Shown piece by piece: positions 47-22,040 of a stretch of 22,040 nt of DNA (its first letter is position 1; each line of letters starts with the position of its first letter). Origin of the DNA: a virus. Position numbers and translations under genes: made by a program. Location: the UHGV virus genome UHGV-0332375. The stretch is one strand, 5' to 3'. Under the pieces are notes generated by a model. That model ran no database searches, was not told where the DNA came from, and was given only the letters and a program-made list of their open reading frames with translations.

Positions 47-340
47 TTAACTCTCGTTCAGCACACTAAACATCCCGTCACGCATCCCCTTAACTGACTG
101 TTTAACCTGATAAAGTTCCCTGCGCAGTTCCTGTACTTCGTTGTTATCCGCAAGCAGGATCAGGCAGCCTTCCGAGATCTTCACGGTAACGCCCGTGCCG
201 ATCTCAAATCCCGCTTCTCTCAGCCATTTGGCGCTGATTTTGATCACTGGTGTATCGCTGCGGTTGGGCAGATAACCCACGGTACAGCGACGCTGTGTTT
301 TGGAAATGGCGACTTCTGGCGTAATATCGCGTTCAGCCAT
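47..340 (-). CDS. SymE-family (type I toxin-like, AbrB/SpoVT-fold) protein
   Basis: 97-aa ORF; segment PVIKISAKWLREAGFEIGTGVTVKISEGCLILLA closely resembles the core of E. coli SymE (…[33 protein letters not shown]…) as recalled from memory; SD-like GAGG upstream of the ATG; followed by a terminator. Confidence 0.7.
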   Translation of the reverse strand: MAERDITPEVAISKTQRRCTVGYLPNRSDTPVIKISAKWLREAGFEIGTGVTVKISEGCLILLADNNEVQELRRELYQVKQSVKGMRDGMFSVLNES

Positions 341-421
341 GATTAACTACCTCTGTTAGTTGCTTATGGTGAGCGGTGGTTAAGGGTGGCAGCCCTTAAT
401 CATCGCGCTATCTCAATGTTA

Positions 422-814
422 TTACTGCGTTTTTCCTATCACATTATCTAAAATCTCAGAAACCAGCTTCTGCTTCGTTCGCGGTAACTGGCTGATGATC
501 TCGATCTGCTGTTCCAGCCGTGACGCCGGGCCGCGCTTGCTGCTTCTGCGTGGTGCTGGCAATCCGAGCAGTTCATCCAGCGACAGGTTCAGGATCTGTG
601 CCAGTTGTGGTAACAGCGCTGCCGAAACCTTGAGCTTCCCGCCTTCGTAATGCGCCATCGTCTGCTGTGCAATCCCTAACTGTTCTGCCAGTTGCGTCTG
701 TGTCAGTTGCTGTTCCTTACGTGCCTGTGCGATCCGTGCGCCAAGCTGCTTAAAAAACTGTTCGTCTTTGGTGTTCATGGCCTGCTGTAGCTGTCCTGTC
801 GTTAACACTGCCAT
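422..814 (-). CDS. XRE-family helix-turn-helix transcriptional regulator
   Basis: HTH signature LTQTQLAEQLGIAQQTMAHYEGGK. The ORF track gives 422-850 from a TTG codon; I prefer the ATG at 814-812, which has a GGGAG Shine-Dalgarno 7 nt upstream (130 aa). Divergent from the primase gene. Confidence 0.7.
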   Translation of the reverse strand: MAVLTTGQLQQAMNTKDEQFFKQLGARIAQARKEQQLTQTQLAEQLGIAQQTMAHYEGGKLKVSAALLPQLAQILNLSLDELLGLPAPRRSSKRGPASRLEQQIEIISQLPRTKQKLVSEILDNVIGKTQ

Positions 815-839
815 GATGTTACTCCCTGTTTTAAATAAC

Positions 840-928
840 TTGGTTGACAATACCCTAATATAGAGTACTCTGCAACAGAGTTATTTTTACCCTAAGTCTA
901 TTGACAGGTTTTTACAGGAGTTCCCGTT
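840..928. promoter_or_regulatory. Divergent promoter/operator region between the XRE regulator and the primase
   Basis: Two TTGACA hexamers (844-849, 901-906), two TACCCTAA direct repeats (851-858, 889-896), a perfect 10-bp palindrome AGAGTACTCT (863-872) overlapping inverted repeat ACTCTG…CAGAGT; AGGAG SD before the primase ATG at 929. Confidence 0.4.
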
Positions 929-3751
929 ATGGCCCGCATCCCGGAAGCAGAGTTGCAGCACCTGAAAGCCGCCGTCTCCTTAGTCGCCGTGGTTCAGGCG
1001 CAGGGGCGACAACTGGTTAAGAAAGGGAAGGACTTCACCACGCTGTGTCCGTTCCATGACGAGAAAACGCCGTCCTGTGTGATCTCGCCCGAGAAAAACC
1101 TGTATCACTGCTTCGGCTGTAACGCAGGCGGATCGGTGCTGAACTGGGTGATGCAGACGGAAAAACTCAGCCTGCGTAAGGCAGCGGAACGTCTGAAAGC
1201 GGAGCTGGGCGACAATCCCGCCGTGGTGCCGCTGGTCACCAGGGATGAGCCGGAAATCTTCGCGGACGATGAAGCGGGCCGCCAGAAGCTGCTGGGCCGC
1301 GTGGTGGAGTTCTACCATCACACGCTGCTGAACGCGCCGGAAGCGGTGGCGTACCTGGAAAAGCGCCGTCTTAACCATCCTGAACTGGTCGCTGCCTTCA
1401 AACTCGGCTTCGCCAACCGTACCCTGCCTTACCGCCTGCCCGCCGTTAAATCACGGGCGGGCGAGAAGATCCGCGCCCGGCTTAAGGGTGTGGGTGTGCT
1501 GCGCGAGTCCGGGCATGAACACTTCACCGGATCGCTGGTTGTGCCGGTGATGGATCTGAACGGGCAGATCCGCGAGATGTACGGGCGCAAGATCACCGAC
1601 AGGTTGCGCAGCGGTACGGCGTTACACCTGTACCTGCCCGGTGCTCACGGCGGCGTGTGGAACGAGCAGGCGCTGATCGGGTCATCCGTGGTTATCCTGT
1701 GCGAATCGCTGATCGACGCCATGTCGTTCTGGGTCGCCGGAGTCCGTAACGTCACGGCGGCTTACGGGGTGAACGGCTTCACCGGTGAGATGCGGGCCGC
1801 ACTGCTGGCACACGGCGTTAAGCAGGTGCTGATCGCCTACGACAACGATCCGGCGGGCAATGAGGCAGCGGTGAAACTGGCTTCTTCCTTAGCCGCTGAC
1901 GGGATCGCCACGTTCCGCGTACTGTTCCCGGCGGGCATGGATGCGAACGGTTATCTGTGCCAGGTGGCAGAGCCGGAACAGGCGTTCAGTGTGTTGCTGG
2001 ACGGCGCGGTGCCCATGAGTGACCTGGCTGACGTGGCGAGTATCGCGCCGCAGGCCAGCGCGGAGCCTGCACACCTCACTTCGTTAGCCGCTGATGTTGC
2101 CGCGCTTCCGGCAGTTAGTGCGCCTGCGCCGGGCGTCAGCGTGGAAACCCTGGCTGATGGCGAACTGATGGTAGCCTTACCGGGCGAACGCTGGACAATC
2201 CGGGGCGTAAGCCGCAAAACCAACGCGGCGGCGATGAAGGTTAACGCGCAGGTGCTGGACACGGAAAGCGGCGTGGTGTTCGCCGATGCGGTGGATATGA
2301 TGAGCGCCCGCAGTCGCGGCGGTTATGCGCGGGCCGCAGCGGCAGAGCTTGGCCTGGCAGAAGGCGATCTGCGTCGCTCGCTGGGTAAGGTGCTGCTGGC
2401 GCTGGAGCACTGGCAGGCCGCACCGGAGCCCGCGAATGCCGCCCCGGAGATGACGCCGGAAGATCGGGAGGCAGCGCTTGAGTTGTTGCGCTCGCCGGAT
2501 CTTGCATCACGCATCGCGGCAGACATGGCGGCGTGTGGTGTGGTGGGTGAGTCCACCAACCTGACGGCGGCGTATCTGGCGGCGGTGTCGCGTAAGCTGG
2601 ACAGGCCGCTGGCGGTGCTGATCCAGTCATCGAGCGCGGCGGGCAAATCCTCGCTGATGGATGCGGTGCTCAACCTGATCCCGCCGGAAGAACGCTTACA
2701 GTACAGCGCCATGACCGGGCAGAGCCTGTTCTACCTCGGTGAAACCAACCTGCAACACAAGATCCTCGCCATCGCGGAAGAAGAAGGTGTGCGCCAGGCG
2801 GCGTATGCGCTCAAGCTGTTGCAGTCGGACGGCGAGTTAACGATCGCGTCAACGGGTAAGGACGACGCCAGCGGTAACCTGGTCACGAAACAGTACACGG
2901 TAAAAGGCCCGGTGATGCTGATGCTGACCACCACCGCCATCGACGTTGACGAGGAGTTACTCAACCGTTGCCTGGTGCTGACGGTGAACGAGTCGCGGGA
3001 GCAGACGGAAGCGATCCATGCGGCGCAGCGTTACGCGCAGACGCTGGAAGGACTGCTGGCGGCTAACGAAAAAAGTTACATCACTCAGCTTCACCAGAAC
3101 GCGCAGCGGCTGTTACGTCCGCTCAACGTGGTGAACCCGTTCGCGTCACAGCTCACGTTCATGAGCGACAAAACCCGCACCCGGCGCGACCACATGAAAT
3201 ACCTGACGCTGATCCAGACGATCGCCCTGCTGCACCAGTATCAGCGGGAGATCAAACGTGTGGAGCATCGCGGGCAGGTGGTGGAGTACATCGAGGTGAC
3301 GCGGGAAGACATCGCGCTGGCGAACCGCCTGGCACATGAAATACTCGGGCGCACCCTGGACGAAATGCCGCCGCAGACCAGAAAGCTGTTGCTGCTGATC
3401 CAGACAATGGTCGGTGAACTGGCAGCGGCGCAGCACTGCAAACCCGGCGAGGTACGCTTCACGCGCCGGGAGATCCGCGACTTCACGCAGTGGAGCGACA
3501 ACCAGCTTAAAGTCCACTGTATGCGGCTGGCGGAAATGGAATACCTGCTGATCCACGGCGGCAGCCGGGGTCACCTGCTGCAATACGAGTTGCTGTGGGA
3601 CGGCAGCGGCGACGGCTCGCACCTGTGCGGCCTGATCGAACCGGAGGACAGCCCGGTGTATGACTCCGGCAAGTTGGGGCAGAACGCGGACAGGTTGCCC
3701 TTAAGTTGCCCACATGTTGGGGCTAAGTTGGGGCTAAGTTGGGGGCGGTAA
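929..3751 (+). CDS. DNA primase, DnaG-like (CHC2 zinc finger, TOPRIM) fused to a large C-terminal domain with a P-loop-like motif
   Basis: 940-aa ORF. N-terminus CPFHDEKTPSC…YHCFGCNAGGS matches the DnaG zinc-binding domain (E. coli DnaG CCPFHNEKTPSF…YHCFGCGAHG); TOPRIM-like ILCESLIDAMS and AYDNDPAGNEAA; Walker-A-like SSSAAGKSS in the C-terminal half. The last ~30 codons overlap an iteron-like repeat array, so the exact C-terminus is uncertain. Confidence 0.85.
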   Translation: MARIPEAELQHLKAAVSLVAVVQAQGRQLVKKGKDFTTLCPFHDEKTPSCVISPEKNLYHCFGCNAGGSVLNWVMQTEKLSLRKAAERLKAELGDNPAVVPLVTRDEPEIFADDEAGRQKLLGRVVEFYHHTLLNAPEAVAYLEKRRLNHPELVAAFKLGFANRTLPYRLPAVKSRAGEKIRARLKGVGVLRESGHEHFTGSLVVPVMDLNGQIREMYGRKITDRLRSGTALHLYLPGAHGGVWNEQALIGSSVVILCESLIDAMSFWVAGVRNVTAAYGVNGFTGEMRAALLAHGVKQVLIAYDNDPAGNEAAVKLASSLAADGIATFRVLFPAGMDANGYLCQVAEPEQAFSVLLDGAVPMSDLADVASIAPQASAEPAHLTSLAADVAALPAVSAPAPGVSVETLADGELMVALPGERWTIRGVSRKTNAAAMKVNAQVLDTESGVVFADAVDMMSARSRGGYARAAAAELGLAEGDLRRSLGKVLLALEHWQAAPEPANAAPEMTPEDREAALELLRSPDLASRIAADMAACGVVGESTNLTAAYLAAVSRKLDRPLAVLIQSSSAAGKSSLMDAVLNLIPPEERLQYSAMTGQSLFYLGETNLQHKILAIAEEEGVRQAAYALKLLQSDGELTIASTGKDDASGNLVTKQYTVKGPVMLMLTTTAIDVDEELLNRCLVLTVNESREQTEAIHAAQRYAQTLEGLLAANEKSYITQLHQNAQRLLRPLNVVNPFASQLTFMSDKTRTRRDHMKYLTLIQTIALLHQYQREIKRVEHRGQVVEYIEVTREDIALANRLAHEILGRTLDEMPPQTRKLLLLIQTMVGELAAAQHCKPGEVRFTRREIRDFTQWSDNQLKVHCMRLAEMEYLLIHGGSRGHLLQYELLWDGSGDGSHLCGLIEPEDSPVYDSGKLGQNADRLPLSCPHVGAKLGLSWGR

Positions 3752-4126: not shown

Positions 4127-5266
4127 ATGATTTTAAATTTTGGTGCGAAAAATTTCTTCAGCTTTAAGGAAGGATTTGATATTTCATTTGAGCTTGGTAA
4201 TACTTGCCCAAAAGAAATTTCAAATGGGAAAGGCGTAACGAATATCCTTTGTATCAAAGGGGCTAATGGTTCAGGTAAAACGAATATACTAAAGGCACTA
4301 AGTTTTTTAACTAGTTTTATCTCTAATTCTTTTGATCTTAAACCAAATGCATATTTGCAGTTTGATCCATATTTTAATAGTAAATCTGAATCTGATTTCT
4401 ATATAACATTTGTATTAGATAATGTTATTTACAGATATGAAGCGTCAATGACTGACGTTGAGGTTAAACGAGAAGCTCTTTATAGAAAAAGTAAACGAGA
4501 AACTAAAGTTATTGAACGTATCAACGATGCAGTTGTGTTCACAATTAAAGAGTTTGATGAATTAAAAAGTATTAAAATGCGAAAAAATGTATCCCTTTTT
4601 AGCATGGCAATGCAATATGATGTTGATTGTGTTAGAGCAATTCATGAAAGTTTTACTAGGGTTATATCAAACGTCAGATATTCAGGTTTATTGACAGAAG
4701 TGCACGAATTAGAATATTTAAACGAATTTTATCATAATAACCCAGATGTATTCGATTTTTGTAAAAAAATTATAATGAAATTCGACCCCTCTATTCATGA
4801 TATTTATATAGCTAAAAATATTAATGATGACGGGAAAGTTACTTACAGGCCTTGGTTTGAGTTTGAGTTTGATGGTGAAACTGATATTTTAAGTTTTAAC
4901 CTGCAATCAAGTGGAACAAAATCATTATATAAGCAGTTAGGAAGTTATAAAGCTGTCCTGGCATTAGGTGGAACGCTTGTACTTGATGAGTTTGACATAA
5001 ATCTTCATCCTCATATACTTCCACATTTATTAGGTATTTTTATTGATGAGGAGCAAAACCCATATAATGCTCAGTTAATATTTACAACTCATAATACTGA
5101 GATTCTGGATTTTTTAGGAAAACATCGAACATATTTAGTCAACAAAAATAAGACTGAAAGTTATTGTTATCGACTTGATGAAATCCCTAGCGATATTTTA
5201 AGGAATGATCGCCCCATAACACCAGCCTATAATCAAGGTAAGATTGGTGGAGTTCCAAATTTATGA
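4127..5266 (+). CDS. ABC/AAA_21-family ATPase (abortive-infection / defence-type ATPase)
   Basis: 379 aa; Walker A GANGSGKTNILKA near residue 45, Walker B LVLDEFDINLHP, TTHN motif near the C-terminus; N-terminal MILNFGAKNFFSFKE typical of AAA_15/AAA_21 ATPases; strongly AT-rich codon usage; candidate promoter TTGACC-N17-TAGGAT about 4065-4093. Confidence 0.8.
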   Translation: MILNFGAKNFFSFKEGFDISFELGNTCPKEISNGKGVTNILCIKGANGSGKTNILKALSFLTSFISNSFDLKPNAYLQFDPYFNSKSESDFYITFVLDNVIYRYEASMTDVEVKREALYRKSKRETKVIERINDAVVFTIKEFDELKSIKMRKNVSLFSMAMQYDVDCVRAIHESFTRVISNVRYSGLLTEVHELEYLNEFYHNNPDVFDFCKKIIMKFDPSIHDIYIAKNINDDGKVTYRPWFEFEFDGETDILSFNLQSSGTKSLYKQLGSYKAVLALGGTLVLDEFDINLHPHILPHLLGIFIDEEQNPYNAQLIFTTHNTEILDFLGKHRTYLVNKNKTESYCYRLDEIPSDILRNDRPITPAYNQGKIGGVPNL

Positions 5267-5766
5267 GCAGAAAGTTTGGAAACTCCAATGCTCAAAAATT
5301 TCTAAAGGGATTTGAGGGGTTAGCAAGTCTTGACTCTGCAGAGTGTAATTTGGCTAGGAGATGTAAATTTAATTTCTCTTATTTTATAAGTAACCAAAAA
5401 GCTTGTGGTAAATTGTCGGATTGGGATAAAGATACAATATGTGTTTTTTTTGACAAGTTAATTGATTACTCTTCGAAATCGTTAAGTGATTTACAAATGA
5501 TCGGTTTGGGAAAGAATCGAAAAAAATTACTTTCTATTTATGATTCTTTCCCCAAAAATAGTTTGTTTGAACAACCTAAAAACATTCCTCATCAGGCTCG
5601 GTGGGGACGAATTAGATTAGATCAGAATAAAAGACTGATTGGGTTTGTTATTCCTGATGATTATCATGGACAAAGACATGAAGGCACTGGAATGTATTAT
5701 GATAAAAATACATTTTATGTTGTTTTTATTGATAATAACCATGGTTTTTATCTTCTTAATAAATAG
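5263..5766 (+). CDS. Hypothetical 167-aa protein, translationally coupled partner of the AAA_21 ATPase
   Basis: Start ATG overlaps the ATPase stop (ATGA at 5263-5266); same AT-rich composition; no motif I can assign to a known effector family (no HNH, TOPRIM, TM segments). Confidence 0.65.
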   Translation: MSRKFGNSNAQKFLKGFEGLASLDSAECNLARRCKFNFSYFISNQKACGKLSDWDKDTICVFFDKLIDYSSKSLSDLQMIGLGKNRKKLLSIYDSFPKNSLFEQPKNIPHQARWGRIRLDQNKRLIGFVIPDDYHGQRHEGTGMYYDKNTFYVVFIDNNHGFYLLNK

Positions 5767-5952
5767 CATTATCACTTCGGTTATCTATATGGGATATATA
5801 GGTGACCGAATTTTTAAGAAAAATGTTTTTAGTTGTAAAAACACATTGCGATATTTATTTCAGCATGTGGAACTGTAAGTATCTCGCATAATCGAAGCAT
5901 TCACATTTAGAGATCTTCTGGCATATTCATTCTGCCAACGAAGGAGATCGTT

Positions 5953-6295
5953 ATGCGTAAAGCCCATTTTACTGAGCATCAGATCATCGCTGTGATTAAG
6001 TCGGTTGAAGCCGGACGAACTGTCAAGGATGTTTGCCGCGAGACCGGTTTCTCTGAAGCGACCTACTACAATTGGAAACCTAAATACGGTGGTATGGAAG
6101 CCTTTGATATTAAAAAGATAAAGGATTTTGAGGACGAGAACAGGCGTCTCAAACAGATGTTTGCTGACATATCAGCCTTGAGAACAGGGCATTGAGACGT
6201 TATCGGAAAAAGCTTTGAAACCAGTCTTTAAGCGTGAGCTGGTCACTCATCTGATAACGACGTTCGGGCTTAGTATCCGTCAGGCCTGCCCCGGA
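5953..6295 (+). mobile_element. Truncated IS3-family insertion sequence remnant (orfA plus start of orfB)
   Basis: ORF 5953-6195 has the HTH_Tnp_1 pattern (FTEHQIIAVIKSVEAGRTVKDVCRETGFSEATYYNWKPKYGGME, similar to IS407-group OrfA); a shifted frame after an A-rich slippery-like stretch (GGAAAAAG ~6205) reads …LKPVFKRELVTHLITTFGLSIRQAC…, typical of an OrfB N-terminus, then breaks off about 6295 where repeat copy C begins. Higher GC than the flanking cargo. Confidence 0.6.
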
Positions 6296-6305
6296 CTTTA
6301 ATTTG

Positions 6306-6385
6306 CTGTAAGCCGCGTGATTCGTGCCCTGACACCCCAAATATATGTATAAGCAAACAGATCTTTTATAACAAAACCGCTCTTT
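6306..6385. repeat. Right copy of the imperfect ~85-bp direct repeat (CTGTAAGCCGC … ATGTATAAGCAAACAG … ACAAAACCGCTC)
   Basis: See 3904-3985; abuts the truncated IS remnant. Confidence 0.6.
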
Positions 6386-6428
6386 ACGCTTCAGGACTTA
6401 TAATATCGTGATTCCCCACATGACATCA

Positions 6429-7427
6429 TCAAGGCGTCGTTGCTTGAGTTGGATTCAGTTCAGAAACATTTGCAGCTTCTGCTTGCTGGACTATAGCTGT
6501 ACGGCGTTTCCGCTTTTTCTTCGGTTTTGGGCTAGTCATCTCTTTAATCCCCAGCATTTCCATGACTTCTGGCTGAGGTGGATAGCAAATACCTATGTCA
6601 GCAGGAGGTGTTGAGTGTCGATGTTTTTCAACTAACGATTTTTCATTATTCCAACGTTTGCAGAGGAAAATAATTCCTTCGAAGTAACGTTCATCTCTTT
6701 TCTGTGCCTCGAGAAGAATGAAAAATGCTCTTCTTTCTAGCCCTTCTAAAAATCCACAAAAGCATTCTCTGAGAAGTTTCTCGTCAAGATCATTGGCCTT
6801 AATTCCTTGAGCTAAAAACTCAAAGAAATTAAGAAGGTACACCAACCCGTTAATCCCTTTCACAACTTCATCTGGGACTTTTGAGTTTTTGAATTTTGGA
6901 TGGTCCGGGTCATCTCTCCAAACACATAGCTCTTTTGGAACATGGCGATTACCTCTCCATAAGTGCGTGAAATTACGCAAATGCGTTTGGTATTCAGTAC
7001 ATGTCCTAGTGCTAAGAACAACATTTAAAGTATGTTTTCTTCGATCACTTGCAGCGGAGGTGATGAATTGGATCCACCACCCCATACCAGCGATTGAACC
7101 GGCAACAATGATTGAAAGAGCTGTTTGGTAGGCATCATTATAGCGAAGTACGTAATATGCCAGCAGGAAAAGTACCCAAACCACACCTCCGAAAAGAGGT
7201 AGTAGTGGGTTTGTATCTGGAAATTTGTTACTGATTTTGTAGACGCTATATAGTGTTGTAAATGTTGCAAATGTAATCATTAACCCAGCATCGAACACTG
7301 CGTAAAACCAAGATGCAGTCTGTACTGCGTTTAAATTAAGTAAAATTCTCGTAATTATGAGACTGATCAAGATGCCAACCAGGACACCAAGCAGTGTTTT
7401 AGTTTTACTTTTTATCCATCGGTACAT
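6429..7427 (-). CDS. Hypothetical multi-pass membrane protein with C-terminal soluble domain and basic tail
   Basis: 332 aa; about four hydrophobic segments in the first ~120 residues (LLGVLVGILISLIITRILL, LMITFATFTTLYSVY, LFGGVVWVLFLLAYYVL, IIVAGSIAGMGWWIQFI); C-terminal KPKKKRKRR tract; AT-rich; lies just outside the prophage int-proximal end. Confidence 0.65.
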   Translation of the reverse strand: MYRWIKSKTKTLLGVLVGILISLIITRILLNLNAVQTASWFYAVFDAGLMITFATFTTLYSVYKISNKFPDTNPLLPLFGGVVWVLFLLAYYVLRYNDAYQTALSIIVAGSIAGMGWWIQFITSAASDRRKHTLNVVLSTRTCTEYQTHLRNFTHLWRGNRHVPKELCVWRDDPDHPKFKNSKVPDEVVKGINGLVYLLNFFEFLAQGIKANDLDEKLLRECFCGFLEGLERRAFFILLEAQKRDERYFEGIIFLCKRWNNEKSLVEKHRHSTPPADIGICYPPQPEVMEMLGIKEMTSPKPKKKRKRRTAIVQQAEAANVSELNPTQATTP

Positions 7428-7448
7428 TCTGAAAACCTTTTTGACGAT

Positions 7449-7475
7449 GAAAAAAACTCCTCAAAATGAGGAGTT
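7449..7475 (-). terminator. Rho-independent terminator between the prophage int-proximal end and the cargo island
   Basis: Perfect 9-bp stem AACTCCTCA / TGAGGAGTT with AAA loop (7455-7475) preceded by an A-run on the plus strand (U-run for leftward transcripts); position analogous to lambda tI/sib downstream of int. Confidence 0.55.
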
Positions 7476-7808
7476 TAGTTCAATGCATGTTAAGACTTAG
7501 CCTTCCCCGTAACCGATAGCGAAGTTTTTCATATAAGCCTCTCCTTTTGTACCTACTGTGTGGGTTAGAACTTCAGTTTGTTGTGAAATCTCTTGTTGAC
7601 TGAATAGTATCAAGAGCTGTGTGCGCTTGACAATAGGTTAGTACAGATTCAGAAAAACTTAAAACAAGAGCTAATTTCTTCAAAAAATGTATATTTATCA
7701 ATATATTATTTTGAGATAAAATTTCCATATCAAAGTAATAGTTCTTTTTAGGTATGTTGACAGGGCTAATTTTTAGACTATTAACATGGCATTTATATAT
7801 CATGAGCT

Positions 7809-8993
7809 TTATCCTGTACGGATTTCTCCATGCGGTACCACTACCCAGTTTGTATGATTTTTAGTGTATATTTTAGTCGATTTTGCATCGCTATGTGCCA
7901 TTCTTCCTTGTGGATCAATACCTTGTTTATCAAATAAGTGAGCAGCCAAAGCCCTTATCTCATGAAATGTAGGCCTTTCTTCCATTGCTAAGTGATTGCA
8001 CAGTCCGAGTTTGTCACGTACAGCAGAGAATGAGCGGCTTATGTAGTCCGGGGCCACTTGAGTAGGGTGCGAAACCTCTTTGCTACGTTTTACATTCCGC
8101 TTTGGAATTCTGTGGACAACGTAAGGACTGGCTACATTATCCCGACTGTTATCAATGATGCGTTTTAGTTCATCACCGATAGGGATTGCAACATGTGACG
8201 CCTCCTTTTTCTGTACCTTTTGCCGATGAATATATAGCATTCCGTATATTCCATTTTGTTGTTGCTCGAACCAGATACATCCACATATGCCGTCTTTAGG
8301 TTCGCGAATTGAGTAACGGATCCGCGATACTTCTAACCGTGCATGTGTCGTTTGTAAGGCTAAGTCCATTGCAGTTCTTAACCATGGTGCCGCGGCGCGG
8401 CGTATAGCCATGAAATGCTCGAATGATAGGCGTTGTCTTTTCTTCTCATCAGTCCTACGTTTTTTTTTCCTCGTTGCGGGGTTATCAAGCATTAGTGATT
8501 CGTCGACCGCATATGAGAACAACTTTTTAAGGAAGCCAACTTTTCTGTTCTGCACATTTGCGGATGAATTGTCATGATATTTGTTGATATAGGCGTTAAC
8601 GTGTTCAAGTTCGATATCGCATGCCGGAATATTTAAGAAAAAATCTTTTACGCGTAGAGCGTCATTTTTCCAGTCATCTAAGGTGCTCTGGGAAGGACGT
8701 TCGTCTTCGACAATTCGGGCCATTATGTGATCAACATGTTCAGCAAATGGTTTTGCTTCTCCGGTAACCCCGCCAGATTCTCTAATAAGATTATCCACTG
8801 ATGGGTATAATTCTGGTCGCATCCTCAGGTTGTACTCTCTGGCGATTGCAACGGCTATTGTCCGATCCTTACCTATATTTTTCTTTTTTCCGGTAATAAG
8901 TGTGAATTTATAAACACCTCGATCTTTATCAAAAACCAGATAATCAGGAAGATGTCTGTATTCTTTTTTACGTGGCCTTGCCGCCATGGTCAT
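7809..8993 (-). CDS. int: Tyrosine recombinase (phage integrase, lambda Int family)
   Basis: 394 aa; C-terminal catalytic region with PTFHEIRALAAHLF … GRMAHSDAKSTKIYTKNH; N-terminal basic arm-binding-like region; overlaps the xis stop. Confidence 0.9.
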   Translation of the reverse strand: MTMAARPRKKEYRHLPDYLVFDKDRGVYKFTLITGKKKNIGKDRTIAVAIAREYNLRMRPELYPSVDNLIRESGGVTGEAKPFAEHVDHIMARIVEDERPSQSTLDDWKNDALRVKDFFLNIPACDIELEHVNAYINKYHDNSSANVQNRKVGFLKKLFSYAVDESLMLDNPATRKKKRRTDEKKRQRLSFEHFMAIRRAAAPWLRTAMDLALQTTHARLEVSRIRYSIREPKDGICGCIWFEQQQNGIYGMLYIHRQKVQKKEASHVAIPIGDELKRIIDNSRDNVASPYVVHRIPKRNVKRSKEVSHPTQVAPDYISRSFSAVRDKLGLCNHLAMEERPTFHEIRALAAHLFDKQGIDPQGRMAHSDAKSTKIYTKNHTNWVVVPHGEIRTG

Positions 8994-9476: not shown

Positions 9477-9835
9477 TTCTTAGTCTCCGGTGCTTTCGGC
9501 ATTACTGCCCAGTGAGTGATATTGACGTTTTCAAGGTCCCCGACCTGAAATGTCCACTGCCATTCTCCAGTTTCTTTTTGCCCCCATGTGTACCAGAGAG
9601 AACGCCAGCCAATCAGCCAGCCTTCTCCATTAGCATCAAATAACAGAACACTTTCATTTGCTGGCGGTAGTTCAGCTGACACTGGTATTACTTTGTTTTC
9701 CAGTGCTGCACATTTAGCTTCAAGCGTATCGAATTTACGTACCAGGTATTCAGCATCCGTTTCATTCACTTTCAGATCTCGCGGTACACATTTCCCGCGA
9801 AGAAACCCTTCCATTTCGAAAAGATTCATGCGCAT
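9473..9835 (-). CDS. Hypothetical prophage protein (YfdS-like by size and position)
   Basis: 120-aa ORF overlapping neighbours by 4 and 10 bp; C-terminal ITHWAVMP motif. Confidence 0.55.
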   Translation of the reverse strand: MRMNLFEMEGFLRGKCVPRDLKVNETDAEYLVRKFDTLEAKCAALENKVIPVSAELPPANESVLLFDANGEGWLIGWRSLWYTWGQKETGEWQWTFQVGDLENVNITHWAVMPKAPETKK

Positions 9836-10362
9836 TTGCGTAACTCCGATAACTCGTTGAAGCGTTCTATAAACATCCCATAGGCATGGCCTGGCGACAG
9901 TGGAATAACTTTGAACATCTCTGTTGCCGGGATACCTTCCAGTACAGGCCAGAAAGAGCCATCATCAAGCCCGAGATCGCGGCGTTCGGTTGCCAGCATG
10001 ATGAGATCGGCATATTTCACAGGCGTGCTCATAACCGTGGGTAACCCGTATTTCTCACGGATTACGGCGTCTATTTTTTCTTCCATCCGTTTATAGTCAG
10101 GAAGAAGGCGTTTCAGCGGCGCGGGGATGTCCTGGCAATACGCTTCTGTTGCATCATGCATTAACGCTTCAAAAGCAAATTCCTGCGGCACCAGCTGGCT
10201 GCAAAGCACCGCATGTTGGGCGACACTGTAGAAGTGTGAAAGATGACCGGCAAAGCGACAGATATTTGAAAGGGAAACCGCGATATCGTTAATCACGATG
10301 TCGTCTTTATTTATCCTGTCATAATAAAAATGCTTCCCGGAAAAAGTTTTAATAAATGACAT
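9826..10362 (-). CDS. HD-domain phosphohydrolase (YfdR-like 5'-deoxynucleotidase)
   Basis: His…HD motif (SVAQHAVLCSQL … ALMHDATEAY); start set to the ATG at 10362 with GGAGAA SD, giving 178 aa, the size I recall for E. coli CPS-53 YfdR. Confidence 0.7.
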   Translation of the reverse strand: MSFIKTFSGKHFYYDRINKDDIVINDIAVSLSNICRFAGHLSHFYSVAQHAVLCSQLVPQEFAFEALMHDATEAYCQDIPAPLKRLLPDYKRMEEKIDAVIREKYGLPTVMSTPVKYADLIMLATERRDLGLDDGSFWPVLEGIPATEMFKVIPLSPGHAYGMFIERFNELSELRKCA

Positions 10363-10489
10363 TTTGTTCTCCGCGTATATGTGCTGCACCACGCTGAATT
10401 CTGGTAAAAGGAAGCCCTCACCATCCGGCGATTATTGAGTCAATTACGTTTCCATAAATGCCCCCGCAGGGGCATTTGCAGTAATGAAA

Positions 10490-21500: not shown

Positions 21501-21794
21501 TTATTGTGAGCAATACACCCGCGCTTCCAGCGGAGTATAAATGCCTAAAGTAATAAAACCGAGCAATCCATTTACGAATGTTTGCTGGGTTTCTGTTTTA
21601 ACAACATTTTCTGCGCCGCCACAAATTTTGGCTGCATCAACAGTTTTCTTCTGTCCAATTCCCGAAACGAAGAAATGATGGGTGATGGTTTCCTTTGGTG
21701 TTACTGCTGTCGGTTTGTTTCCAACAGTAAACGTCTGTTGAGCACATCCTGTAATAAGCATAGCCAGAGCGGCAGAAAACAACATTTTTTTCAT
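21501..21794 (-). CDS. bor: Bor lipoprotein (serum-resistance, lysogenic conversion)
   Basis: 97 aa from MKKMLFSAALAMLITGCAQQTFTV…; essentially the lambda Bor sequence as recalled; lipobox ITGC (track ORF has a 16-codon upstream extension). Confidence 0.9.
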   Translation of the reverse strand: MKKMLFSAALAMLITGCAQQTFTVGNKPTAVTPKETITHHFFVSGIGQKKTVDAAKICGGAENVVKTETQQTFVNGLLGFITLGIYTPLEARVYCSQ

Positions 21795-22040
21795 CTTATT
21801 ATCCTGCATTGTTAAAAACGGCAGAATCCTATGTGACAACAATTAAACGATAGTTAAATGGATTGATGAAAATTAAAACTATATAGGTGTACGATCAGAC
21901 TATTGGAGGTAGTCAGGATTTGAATGTCAGTCTGTTGTCGGCATTCTGGCAATGCAATTTGGATAAAGCGGGGATTAAAAAGATAGAGGCGAGCCGGTCA
22001 GGTAGAAATGAATCAGGCTCAAAGTGAAGCGGAAAAGGTC

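What the first reader, a model, noticed from the sequence alone, without database searches (positions are those of the whole stretch)
6429..7427. Orphan 332-aa multi-pass membrane protein adjacent to the prophage int-proximal end
Four predicted TM helices followed by a ~200-aa soluble domain and a highly basic C-terminal tail (KPKKKRKRR), AT-rich, encoded just outside the prophage next to the defence-like cassette. The architecture is compatible with a membrane-anchored abortive-infection or superinfection-exclusion factor. I recognise no catalytic motif, so this is an inference from context and topology.
Basis: inference. Interest (0 to 1): 0.55.

Follow-up and report, generated by a model that had tools for sequence, protein, structure and literature searches.

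The report
Prophage micro-peptide plus DUF4760 membrane-protein cassette
The "orphan" membrane protein belongs to the uncharacterised DUF4760 family carried by prophages, and it always comes with an unannotated 8-17-codon gene and a terminator just upstream, a so far undescribed two-part cassette that probably acts in phage exclusion or defence.

Summary
The ORF (6429-7427, minus strand, 332 aa) is real. It has four N-terminal TM helices, a confidently folded all-helical cytoplasmic domain and a disordered basic tail. It is not an orphan: Pfam DUF4760 (E 2.7e-14), annotated as such in RefSeq, 362 clusters at 50% identity. It is not outside the prophage: xis-int-DUF4760 recurs at three or more chromosomal sites, and homology stops about 85 bp past its stop codon.

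The main new result is a translated micro-ORF (7497-7532, MKNFAIGYGEG) with a strong RBS, followed by an intrinsic terminator (7450-7476) 22 nt before the DUF4760 start. This trio is conserved across the family, from Enterobacterales to Pseudomonas, Acinetobacter phages and P1-like plasmids. The last five codons show 36 synonymous and 0 nonsynonymous differences. All 64 such micro-ORFs in 1.7 Mb precede DUF4760 genes.

The gene sits at prophage ends or in moron slots. In P1-like plasmids it replaces the sim superinfection-exclusion operon. There are no PADLOC hits, no informative fold match and no literature.

Best reading (inferred): a self-contained prophage exclusion/defence cassette in which the terminator yields abundant peptide and little membrane protein, the peptide acting as partner or regulator. 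Function is untested.

The parts
7604..7633 (-). Promoter-like element (TTGTCA, 16/18-nt spacer, GATACT/TACTAT) upstream of the micro-ORF, overlapping an imperfect inverted repeat TTGTCAAG...CTTGATAC
   Evidence: Consensus scan. The TTGTCA box and the TAnTAT box keep the same position, 68-76 nt before the micro-ORF ATG, in enterobacterial loci. Overall promoter scores are not better than shuffles. Unverified.
7497..7532 (-). Unannotated micro-ORF, 11 codons plus TAA: MKNFAIGYGEG. Its Shine-Dalgarno AAGGAGAGG lies at 7538-7546.
   Evidence: Sequence. Conserved with synonymous changes in E. coli, Cronobacter and Pantoea, and as G-[Y/F/V]-G-[E/A]-G-stop in Pseudomonas, Shewanella, Halomonas and phage loci. 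Codon counts: 36 synonymous and 0 nonsynonymous in the last five codons. Background control. Reverse motif search.
7450..7476 (-). Intrinsic terminator: AAACUCCUCA-UUU-UGAGGAGUUU followed by a run of U, ending 22 nt before the DUF4760 ATG
   Evidence: Scan. Folding gives -12.1 kcal/mol, z -5.4. An equivalent hairpin plus U-tract with unrelated stem sequences is present in all clades.
6429..7427 (-). DUF4760 family gene, 332 aa (stop codon included)
   Evidence: ORF list; Pfam PF15956; RefSeq WP_077873354.1; homologues.
7059..7397 (-). Four predicted transmembrane helices (residues about 11-123)
6540..7058 (-). Cytoplasmic all-helical DUF4760 domain (residues 124-296) carrying the family-wide invariant residues (H132-T133, R141, N200, E203, D213-L-D215, W259)
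   Evidence: Alignments; AF2 pLDDT 88.8. Weak fold matches only.
6432..6539 (-). Disordered C-terminal tail (residues 297-332) with the basic cluster KPKKKRKRR (6501-6527)
   Evidence: pLDDT below 50; composition. The basic cluster is conserved in composition in enterobacterial homologues only.
6344..6428 (.). Int-proximal end of the prophage (presumed att arm). Homology with the same prophage type at other chromosomal sites stops at about 6344.
   Evidence: blastn breakpoints. No att direct repeat could be found in the complete genome, so the core is not defined.
7809..8993 (-). Lambda-type tyrosine integrase, immediately upstream on the same strand
   Evidence: Pfam Arm-DNA-bind_1 and Phage_integrase; RefSeq annotation. 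The same int then DUF4760 order occurs in L011-L013, L021-L024 and L124.

Best explanation
The gene is the last cargo gene of a lambdoid prophage, lying between int and the attachment end. It is the large component of a self-contained accessory cassette with the order promoter, translated micro-ORF (MKNFAIGYGEG), intrinsic terminator, inner-membrane DUF4760 protein. Shown here: the architecture, its conservation across the family, amino-acid-level selection on the micro-peptide, the confinement of the family to phages, prophages and phage-plasmids at accessory positions, and the replacement of the P1 sim operon by the cassette in P1-like plasmids. Inferred: most transcripts stop at the terminator, so the peptide is made in large excess over the membrane protein, which is made only by read-through (as in mccA-mccB). 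The short and presumably labile peptide acts in trans on the cytoplasmic DUF4760 domain as a partner or inhibitor. In the lysogen the membrane protein excludes or aborts superinfecting phages, either by acting at the inner membrane during DNA entry or by becoming active when peptide supply fails.
For: Architecture in the window and in about 50 of 55 loci with enough upstream sequence, including distant subfamilies and P1-like plasmids where the peptide ending diverges with the protein subfamily. Selection at amino-acid level: 36 synonymous and 0 nonsynonymous differences in the last five codons of the enterobacterial class, and Gly codons vary GGT/GGC/GGA/GGG. Specificity: all 64 G[YFV]G[EA]G-stop micro-ORFs in 1.7 Mb precede DUF4760 genes; 22 of 28 motif hits in IMG/VR precede DUF4760, and 5 of the other 6 look like chance. 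Peptide ORF and DUF4760 gene have decayed together in L033. Terminators are stable with unrelated stems, and no promoter-like site lies between terminator and ATG. No conserved antiterminator pairing was found, which fits a ratio-setting terminator better than a classical attenuator. Precedent for a tiny ORF, terminator and downstream genes giving about 20:1 transcripts: PMC4231749. Mobile-element and accessory location. Neighbours include CBASS, a SocA/Panacea module, DinI, UmuDC and gtrABC. Replacement of the P1 sim slot. Predicted cytoplasmic location of the DUF4760 domain, the same compartment as a leaderless peptide.
Against: There is no functional evidence at all. No PADLOC, NCBIfam or PDB sequence match. 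Fold matches are weak and uninformative. No paper treats the family. An 8-17-residue cytoplasmic peptide would normally be degraded quickly, and binding to the DUF4760 domain was not modelled. A few distant members lack the micro-ORF (L076, L081/L084). Promoter evidence is weak. Conservation focused on the residues next to the stop codon is also what a ribosome-stalling leader peptide would show. Location in an accessory slot is only circumstantial evidence for exclusion or defence.
Confidence: 0.4

Rival explanations
1. The micro-ORF is a cis-acting leader peptide. Ribosome stalling or occupancy on its last codons or stop codon (G-Phi-G-E-G-stop), in response to translation stress or phage takeover, hinders terminator formation and switches on the DUF4760 gene. 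The free peptide itself has no function. The downstream protein could still be an exclusion or abortive-infection effector.
For: Conservation is strongest at the C-terminal residues and the stop codon, while the length and sequence of the N-terminal part vary. In most clades the stop codon lies only 9-22 nt from the terminator stem, within or near a ribosome footprint. The near-invariant GAA and TAA codons hint at a nucleotide- or decoding-level constraint. In enterobacterial and phi467-type leaders the terminator 5' arm (CUCC) can pair with the micro-ORF RBS. uORF-controlled toxin operons and stop-codon stalling peptides (tnaC, toiL-topAI) are established precedents (own knowledge).
Against: No conserved alternative (antiterminator) pairing: mean z -0.07 over 36 leaders, and the leader fold is not distinguishable from shuffles. 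Spacing is 41-45 nt in the large phi467-type clade. The peptide ending drifts in step with the DUF4760 subfamily (GYGEG, DGYGIS, NEGTGIV, SGCFE) although the ribosome is the same, which fits a protein partner better. One orphan peptide-plus-terminator cassette exists without a DUF4760 gene.
Confidence: 0.3
2. The micro-peptide is a substrate or cargo and not a regulator. The DUF4760 membrane protein modifies or exports it, giving a small RiPP-like product or a phage communication signal, with the terminator providing substrate excess as in microcin C.
For: The architecture is the same as mccA-terminator-mccB. The DUF4760 domain has an unusually large set of invariant polar residues (H, R, N, E, D-x-D, W), compatible with a catalytic or tight ligand site. 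A multi-pass membrane anchor is present.
Against: No recognisable enzymatic or transporter fold. No ATP-binding or peptidase motif is recognised, and no accessory biosynthetic, immunity or receptor genes are conserved nearby. Short family members have only one or two TM helices, too few for a transporter. The domain is predicted cytoplasmic.
Confidence: 0.1
3. The cassette serves the prophage's own life cycle or host physiology and not anti-phage exclusion. It could be a lysis or membrane-timing factor, a stress or SOS-linked membrane protein, or a surface-conversion function.
For: A multi-pass membrane protein with a charged C-terminal tail superficially recalls holins. Neighbours are often DinI or UmuDC (SOS-related) or gtrABC. 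In phage Riah it lies next to the lysis genes.
Against: This prophage has its own lambda-family holin, endolysin and Rz far away. The protein is much larger than holins and has a folded 170-aa domain. Positions vary (int end, tail-fibre end, within tail genes, P1 sim slot), which is typical of dispensable morons and not of core functions. Only 32 of 5426 complete E. coli genomes carry a homologue.
Confidence: 0.12
4. It is an ordinary housekeeping membrane transporter or enzyme that merely lies beside the prophage.
For: None beyond the multi-pass topology. There is one insignificant NCBIfam hit (E 0.07, 12 bits against a cut-off of 296) to a sugar transferase membrane region.
Against: No transporter or enzyme family match. 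It is rare and patchy in E. coli. It always occurs in phage, prophage or phage-plasmid contexts and travels with the integrase.
Confidence: 0.02

Closest known systems
Pfam DUF4760 (PF15956), uncharacterised family of bacteria and phages
   Same: Significant full-domain match (residues 114-259, 53.9 bits). Shares the family-wide motifs (Q/K)HT, R-L-S/R-T, LNY/FxEF and GDLD and the C-terminal W. RefSeq uses this name.
   Different: This subfamily is about twice the typical length, with three extra N-terminal TM helices and, in Enterobacterales, a basic disordered tail. The family has no assigned function, and the upstream micro-ORF is not annotated in the RefSeq or GenBank records examined here.
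Phage P1 simABC (superimmunity / superinfection exclusion)
   Same: In P1-like IncY phage-plasmids the cassette occupies exactly the slot between pmgC and the c4-icd-ant immunity region that holds simC-simB-simA in P1. Both are lysogen-expressed envelope-associated accessory genes (the expression part is inference).
   Different: No sequence similarity to SimA, SimB or SimC. The Sim proteins start with a hydrophobic, signal-peptide-like N-terminus (sequences), whereas DUF4760 is a multi-pass membrane protein with a cytoplasmic domain. Sim has no micro-ORF and terminator leader.
Membrane superinfection-exclusion morons (HK97 gp15, P22 SieA, T4 Imm); own knowledge, not tested here
   Same: Small autonomous gene units inserted at variable positions in temperate phage genomes and encoding inner-membrane proteins. 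The Acinetobacter phage TRS1 copy lies between the tail chaperone and tape-measure genes with its own terminator, a position comparable to the HK97 gp15 moron as I recall it.
   Different: No detectable homology: tblastn of the phage collection finds only four DUF4760 records. Those proteins lack a large cytoplasmic domain and a conserved upstream micro-ORF.
mccA - intrinsic terminator - mccB (microcin C operon; PMC4231749)
   Same: A very short translated ORF with a strong RBS, an intrinsic terminator in the intergenic region and downstream genes expressed by read-through, which sets a large excess of peptide over downstream proteins.
   Different: MccB is an adenylating enzyme and the operon includes export and immunity genes. 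Here the only conserved partner is a DUF4760 membrane protein with no recognisable enzymatic fold. Ribosome-dependent unmasking of the terminator was not testable, and no conserved masking structure was found.
Toxin-antitoxin / abortive-infection logic with a labile inhibitor made in excess, and P22/lambda SieB with its small self-inhibitor Esc (own knowledge)
   Same: The upstream, more highly expressed small product and the downstream, weakly expressed potentially harmful membrane protein follow the gene order and stoichiometry of TA modules. The location is in prophage accessory regions.
   Different: No toxicity, inhibition or phage phenotype has been shown. The putative inhibitor is far smaller (8-17 aa) than known protein antitoxins. 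No PADLOC model matches.
Plant EDS1/PAD4/SAG101 EP domain and GST C-terminal domain (fold level only)
   Different: Scores are in the grey zone for helical domains, with 5-8% identity. No shared motifs were examined. This should not be read as homology.

Membership tests
Pfam DUF4760 (PF15956) | Score above the curated gathering threshold over the full model | tested here: met
   53.9 bits against a cut-off of 25, model positions 5-141 of 141, E 2.7e-14. All 45 close homologues carry PF15956.
Pfam DUF4760 (PF15956) | Family-wide conserved residues (H-T after the last TM helix, R of RLS/RT, N and E of LNYxEF, D-L-D, C-terminal W) | tested here: met
   H132, T133, R141, N200, E203, D213, L214, D215 and W259 are invariant in the long subfamily. 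The same columns are invariant or nearly so in short distant members.
Known anti-phage defence systems (PADLOC-DB v2) | Match to any of 5027 defence-protein models | tested here: not met
   0 families at E up to 0.1 for this protein, while the neighbouring ATPase hits AbiLi at 1.6e-64.
Abortive-infection or superinfection-exclusion factor | Reduces productive infection by other phages when expressed in the host | not testable with these tools
   Needs a phage challenge experiment. Only circumstantial location evidence is available.
Phage P1 Sim proteins | Sequence similarity to SimA, SimB or SimC | tested here: not met
   blastp of the P1-like plasmid DUF4760 protein against SimA/B/C gives no hit better than E 0.6.
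Moron (autonomous accessory unit in a phage genome) | Variable presence and position between conserved phage genes, with its own promoter and terminator | tested here: inconclusive
   Variable positions and presence are shown. TRS1 has an annotated terminator after the gene. The promoter-like box is conserved in position, but its score is not better than shuffles. No terminator-like site was found after the gene in the window.
mccA-type peptide-terminator-enzyme operon | Tiny translated ORF followed by an intrinsic terminator before the downstream gene | tested here: met
   Micro-ORF 7497-7532 with RBS; terminator 7450-7476 at -12.1 kcal/mol; conserved across clades.
mccA-type peptide-terminator-enzyme operon | Downstream MccB-like (ThiF/E1) adenylating enzyme plus export and immunity genes | tested here: not met
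   The only Pfam hit of the downstream protein is DUF4760. Neighbourhoods show no conserved E1-like or exporter gene.
Classical leader-peptide transcription attenuator | Alternative antiterminator structure competing with the terminator | tested here: not met
   Duplex energies between upstream leader and terminator 5' arm are not better than shuffles (mean z -0.07, n=36). Leader folds have z -1.5 and +0.9.
Classical leader-peptide transcription attenuator | Short translated ORF ending close to the terminator, with regulatory codons | tested here: inconclusive
   Three Gly codons in the last five positions, and stop-to-stem spacing of 9-22 nt in most clades but 41-45 nt in one large clade. Stalling is not testable here.
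HEPN ribonuclease domains (common in Abi/TA systems) | R-x(4-6)-H motif in an all-helical domain | tested here: not met
Holins | Small (under about 150 aa) membrane protein encoded next to an endolysin | tested here: not met
   332 aa with a folded 170-aa domain. The prophage's holin, endolysin and Rz genes lie about 13 kb away.
Rfam RNA families (leader region) | Match of the leader or terminator region to a curated RNA family | tested here: not met
   The only hit in 6200-7900 at E up to 1 is isrN at 6217-6343, outside the cassette.

The most novel reading that the evidence does not exclude
The micro-ORF and the DUF4760 protein form a new kind of phage-borne two-component system in which a ribosomally made 8-17-residue peptide, kept in excess by an intergenic terminator, is the specific ligand of a membrane effector. 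It could act as a labile antitoxin, so that the cassette senses loss of host gene expression, or as a self-immunity or signalling peptide. Peptide and receptor domain co-diversify into specificity classes (GYGEG, GFGEG, GVGEG, DGYGIS, NEGTGIV, SGCFE). Phages may carry orphan peptide cassettes as counter-measures, as in the single case L142.
Probability: 0.3. Interest if true: 0.85.

Novelty: new variant of a known kind. Interest (0 to 1): 0.64.

Why it matters
If the inference holds, DUF4760 cassettes are an unrecognised, widespread class of prophage-encoded exclusion or defence modules, found in Enterobacterales, Pseudomonas, Acinetobacter, Shewanella and P1-like phage-plasmids. Their control logic is unusual: one of the shortest conserved bacterial genes (8-17 codons), missed by the genome annotations examined here, coupled through a terminator to a membrane protein. 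It would give a function to a DUF family and add a new example of functional micro-peptides. It would also give a simple, testable system for peptide-gated membrane effectors, because the whole cassette is about 1.2 kb. Even if the peptide proves to be only a cis-acting leader, it would be a new conserved nascent-peptide or terminator switch controlling a phage accessory gene.

Tried and rejected
1. An att direct repeat between the two prophage ends in the complete genome NZ_CP116480.1: only 11-12-nt chance matches. The boundary was mapped by homology breakpoints instead.
2. An empty-site comparison: every E. coli genome with the left flank also has the prophage.
3. tRNA integration targets: none in the window or in seven related loci.
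4. A PDB sequence profile search: nothing.
7. The BFVD viral structure library: nothing informative. afdb50 was unavailable.
8. A profile search with diverse short family members for names or domain fusions: only 4 hits, no new information.
9. A literature search for DUF4760 and for the peptide motifs: one incidental table entry and no relevant paper.
10. A conserved antiterminator or RBS-masking structure: not supported.
11. Promoter strength against shuffles: not significant.
12. The isrN-like RNA as part of the cassette: rejected, because it is absent from other integration sites.
13. Resemblances recalled from memory between the peptide ending and the K+ channel filter signature, arbitrium peptides or glycyl-radical motifs were considered and set aside as untestable coincidences.
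Full report
THE OBSERVATION

The ORF at 6429..7427 (minus strand) exists, starts with ATG and encodes 332 aa. Kyte-Doolittle hydropathy gives hydrophobic segments at about residues 11-31, 74-94 and 101-123, and a weaker one at 39-61. Four K/R lie in the first ten residues and an RRK cluster follows the fourth segment, which predicts an N-in/C-in topology with the C-terminal part in the cytoplasm.

AlphaFold2 on a 43-sequence alignment (pLDDT 78.6) gives four long helices (2-32, 39-68, 76-96, 98-142). These are followed by an all-helical domain and a disordered tail at 297-332. The soluble domain modelled alone (residues 120-296) is confident, with pLDDT 88.8 and pTM 0.83. The basic run KPKKKRKRR is at residues 301-309 and is followed by 23 more residues. 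A K/R cluster at this place is conserved in composition in enterobacterial homologues and is missing in Pseudomonas ones, so it is native and not an artefact of the nearby IS fragment. The gene has 40.5% GC against 48% for the prophage.

NOT AN ORPHAN

The protein matches Pfam DUF4760 (PF15956) over the whole model (53.9 bits, cut-off 25, E 2.7e-14). It also matches PHROGs 8946, 21275 and 2284, all of unknown function. It matches nothing in PADLOC, nothing meaningful in NCBIfam and nothing in PDB sequences. RefSeq already annotates it as 'DUF4760 domain-containing protein' (WP_077873354.1) in 15 of 5426 complete E. coli genomes, and 17 more carry a roughly 71%-identical allele.

A word-indexed search found 45 homologues at 41-100% identity in Escherichia, Cronobacter, Pantoea, Serratia, Citrobacter, Atlantibacter, Klebsiella, Dryocola and Pseudomonas. 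An exhaustive phmmer search of 1.84 billion cluster representatives found 362 at E up to 1e-3. Alignments show a dense set of invariant polar residues in the soluble domain (GMGWWIQ, RRxHTLN, RTxxEYQ, WR, LNxFEFLAQGxK, DLD, ECF, FEG, WN). A core of these (H-T, R, N..E.F, D-L-D, W) is also invariant in short 150-250-aa family members with one to three TM helices.

INSIDE THE PROPHAGE, NOT OUTSIDE

In the complete genome NZ_CP116480.1 the gene lies directly downstream of, and on the same strand as, a lambda-type integrase. That integrase starts a roughly 40-kb prophage with yfdP/Q/R-like early genes, a P27-type terminase and a myovirus tail. The same order, xis then int then DUF4760, occurs with a 91%-identical protein next to narP/ccm in other E. 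coli. There it is found with or without a gtrABC cluster beyond it. It also occurs with a 73%-identical protein in Cronobacter, in front of two different sets of host genes.

DNA homology between the window and the narP-site prophages runs from xis through int and DUF4760 and stops at window 6344, 85 bp past the stop codon. The two Cronobacter loci diverge about 200 bp past their stop codon. The gene is therefore the last gene of the prophage, between int and the attachment end. I could not find the att core itself: there is no convincing direct repeat, no empty site and no tRNA. Beyond 6344 lie an isrN-like sequence and an IS3 fragment (5874-6288), and then the AbiL-like cassette. These belong to a different island.

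WHERE THE FAMILY LIVES

Every context examined is a phage, prophage or phage-plasmid, at an accessory position:
- After an integrase or recombinase: the window, L011-13, L016, L020-24, phage phi467 and the Klebsiella 41-kb circular element.
- At the tail-fibre end of a lambdoid prophage, between two DinI genes and next to a SocA/Panacea module (L005-10).
- Next to UmuDC at prophage ends (L014, L017-19).
- At the genome end of Pseudomonas phage Riah.
- Between the tail chaperone and tape-measure genes of Acinetobacter phage TRS1, with an annotated terminator of its own.

In IMG/VR contigs of 20 kb or more, 16 of 24 copies lie within 3 kb of a contig end, against 3.9 expected for random placement.

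Twenty-nine E. coli plasmids of 87-98 kb carry a 27%-identical copy. The one inspected, pBJ114-96, has an IncY replicon and is P1-like. Its synteny with P1 (sit-pmgB-tub-pmgC) breaks 174 bp after pmgC and resumes at icd/ant. The cassette and two small genes replace simC-simB-simA, the P1 superimmunity (superinfection-exclusion) operon, and no Sim homologue is left.

THE NEW FINDING: A CONSERVED MICRO-ORF AND TERMINATOR

Upstream of the DUF4760 ATG (7427) the window has three elements:
- A promoter-like TTGTCA / GATACT-TACTAT pair (7633-7604).
- An 11-codon ORF with a strong Shine-Dalgarno (AAGGAGAGG, then ATG at 7532 and TAA ending at 7497), encoding MKNFAIGYGEG.
- A 10-bp hairpin followed by a U run (7476-7450; -12.1 kcal/mol, z -5.4) that ends 22 nt before the ATG.

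No promoter-like site lies in between. None of this is annotated.

The same arrangement is present in Cronobacter (MQNFEIGYGEG), Pantoea (MRNLEIGYGEG) and other E. coli (MRNFEIGYGEG). It is also present in phage phi467 and relatives (MKKTLTVGFGEG), Dryocola (MKNTFTVGFGEG), Pseudomonas (MKNASIGVGEG, MLNVGVGEG, MKLETGVGAG), Shewanella and Halomonas. Of about 55 loci with enough upstream sequence, about 50 have a micro-ORF ending G-[Y/F/V]-G-[E/A]-G-stop, followed by a hairpin and T run.

Distant subfamilies have the same layout with different endings:
- ...DGYGIS or ...DGYGIG (Acinetobacter phages).
- ...NEGTGIV or ...NEGTGIA.
- ...DGIGLG.
- MKQEGIGGA.
- ...HGSGCG.
- ...ESGCNE.
- MVITQSGCFESGCFE (P1-like plasmids).

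A few distant members lack the micro-ORF (L076, L081/84). In L033 the peptide ORF is frameshifted and the DUF4760 gene is truncated, so both have decayed together.

STATISTICS

In 1.7 Mb of fetched loci (both strands) there are 10,106 ATG micro-ORF ends. Of these, 64 end G[YFV]G[EA]G-stop, and all 64 lie just upstream of DUF4760 genes. Only about 4-6 other micro-ORFs end in any G.G.G-stop.

Among nine distinct enterobacterial micro-ORF sequences, the last five codons show 36 synonymous and 0 nonsynonymous pairwise differences. Over 29 distinct ORFs the three Gly positions use GGT, GGC, GGA and GGG, while Glu is GAA in 28 of 29 and the stop is TAA in 25 of 29.

In the reverse direction, the 18-nt motif GGTTWYGGTGAAGGYTAA occurs 28 times in the whole IMG/VR collection:
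- 22 are followed by a DUF4760 gene.
- 5 have no RBS, ATG or terminator and look like chance.
- 1 (L142) is a well-formed MVGFGEG micro-ORF plus terminator with no DUF4760 gene downstream.

Ten terminators from unrelated clades fold at -11.8 to -19.2 kcal/mol with unrelated stems. The micro-ORF is thus translated and under amino-acid-level selection. The micro-ORF-terminator-DUF4760 trio is a conserved unit.

HOW IT MAY WORK

Because there is no room for a promoter after the terminator, DUF4760 can only be expressed by read-through. The arrangement is the one documented for microcin C. There, a terminator between the 7-codon mccA and mccB yields about 20:1 short to long transcripts and so a large excess of peptide (PMC4231749).

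I tested for a classical attenuator. The nascent leader can pair the terminator's 5' arm (CUCCU) with the micro-ORF RBS in the window. Over 36 distinct leaders, however, complementarity of the 5' arm to upstream sequence is no better than shuffles (mean z -0.07). The stop-to-stem spacing is 9-22 nt in most clades but 41-45 nt in the phi467-type clade.

Three further points favour a trans-acting peptide made in excess over a purely cis-acting leader. The peptide ending drifts in step with the protein subfamily. The DUF4760 domain is predicted to be cytoplasmic, the same compartment as a leaderless peptide. One orphan peptide cassette exists without a DUF4760 gene. None of this excludes a stalling leader, because conservation next to the stop codon and the near-invariant GAA/TAA codons fit that rival. 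The promoter is only suggested: its position is conserved within clades, but scores are not above shuffles.

WHAT THE PROTEIN DOES

This is not shown by anything here:
- The viral structure library adds nothing.
- No paper deals with the family.

The inference that it excludes or aborts other phages rests on four things. The family is confined to temperate mobile elements. It sits in moron or prophage-end positions among defence and lysogenic-conversion genes. It replaces the P1 sim operon. Its TA-like gene order and stoichiometry also fit. I put this at about 0.4. A cis-leader version comes in at about 0.3 (compatible with the same end function), a substrate or signal version at about 0.1, and other phage or host functions at about 0.12.

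COMPARISON WITH KNOWN SYSTEMS, AND VERDICT

It is a member of DUF4760 (tested and met). It is not a member of any PADLOC system, of the Sim proteins, of HEPN domains or of the holins (tested and not met). It shares its architecture, but not its enzymology, with mccA-mccB. It resembles membrane superinfection-exclusion morons in location and predicted localisation only.

The interesting part is the conserved, unannotated micro-peptide gene and terminator. As far as the searched literature, Pfam, PADLOC and Rfam show, this has not been described.

Noticed in passing
window 6217-6343 (minus strand): Rfam isrN (RF01396, Hfq-binding sRNA of Salmonella islands) matches at 61.7 bits (gathering score 44, E 2e-12). 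It starts exactly where prophage homology ends (6344) and overlaps the IS3 fragment (5874-6288). It is absent from the flanks of the same prophage type at other sites, so it belongs to the integration target or IS remnant.
   Followed up: partly
window 4127-5766 (plus strand): A two-gene cassette at 31% GC: a 379-aa AAA_21 ATPase matching PADLOC AbiLi (E 1.6e-64) and PHROG 5836, plus an overlapping 167-aa partner with no family match (not recognisably AbiLii). It is separated from the prophage by an IS3 fragment.
   Followed up: partly
window 47-3751: A SymE-family toxin gene (47-340, minus), an HTH gene (422-850, minus) and a 940-aa 'DNA primase' gene at 61-67% GC (929-3751, plus), according to RefSeq annotation of the identical genome. 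The whole region lies within an Rhs/ISEc1 region near pptA-nhoA-narZ. It looks like a separate integrative element or satellite remnant.
   Followed up: no
L142 1780-1803 (IMGVR_UViG_2974644047_000001): A well-formed micro-ORF MVGFGEG with a strong RBS and a clean terminator, among small phage early genes, with no DUF4760 gene downstream (HMM search negative). It is either a remnant or a stand-alone peptide gene, possibly a counter-measure. Single case.
   Followed up: partly
L123 5824-8159 (plasmid pBJ114-96, NZ_MF679145.1) versus P1 NC_005856.1 46750-48500: In P1-like IncY phage-plasmids the simCBA operon is replaced by the micro-ORF-terminator-DUF4760 cassette. With it come two small divergently oriented genes: a 156-aa protein with a signal-peptide-like N-terminus and a 116-aa membrane protein.
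   Followed up: partly
L005 7806-8912 and the other P0025 loci: The common E. coli allele (303 aa as annotated; index lists it in 661 blocks of the collection) is probably annotated too short. An in-frame upstream ATG (MYRLIKRN...) restores the first TM helix and puts the micro-ORF at the usual distance of about 105 nt.
   Followed up: partly
L033 5700-6132 (Enterobacter sp. EA-1): Both the micro-ORF (frameshifted MKKTLTVGFGEG) and the DUF4760 gene (truncated to 100 aa) are decayed in the same locus.
   Followed up: no
window 7604-7633 (minus strand) and the equivalent in L011/L012/L021: The promoter-like boxes form an imperfect inverted repeat (TTGTCAAG-N9/10-CTTGATAC/A), conserved between E. 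coli and Cronobacter although the surrounding sequence is not. It could be an operator.
   Followed up: no
window 9826-10392 versus L001 12527-13839: The window has an intact yfdR-like 5'-deoxynucleotidase gene, whereas the otherwise identical prophage of strain GTEN_24 has an IS1 inserted in it. The window therefore comes from a close relative and not from that strain.
   Followed up: no
window 21501-21842 (minus strand): An iss/bor-type serum-survival lipoprotein gene follows the lysis genes of the prophage (RefSeq annotation of the identical region), another lysogenic-conversion moron in the same prophage.
   Followed up: no
L021 9227-12216: A gtrA-gtrB-gtr(type) O-antigen glucosylation cluster lies between the DUF4760 gene and narP in one E. 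coli assembly and is absent from an otherwise identical locus (L022).
   Followed up: no
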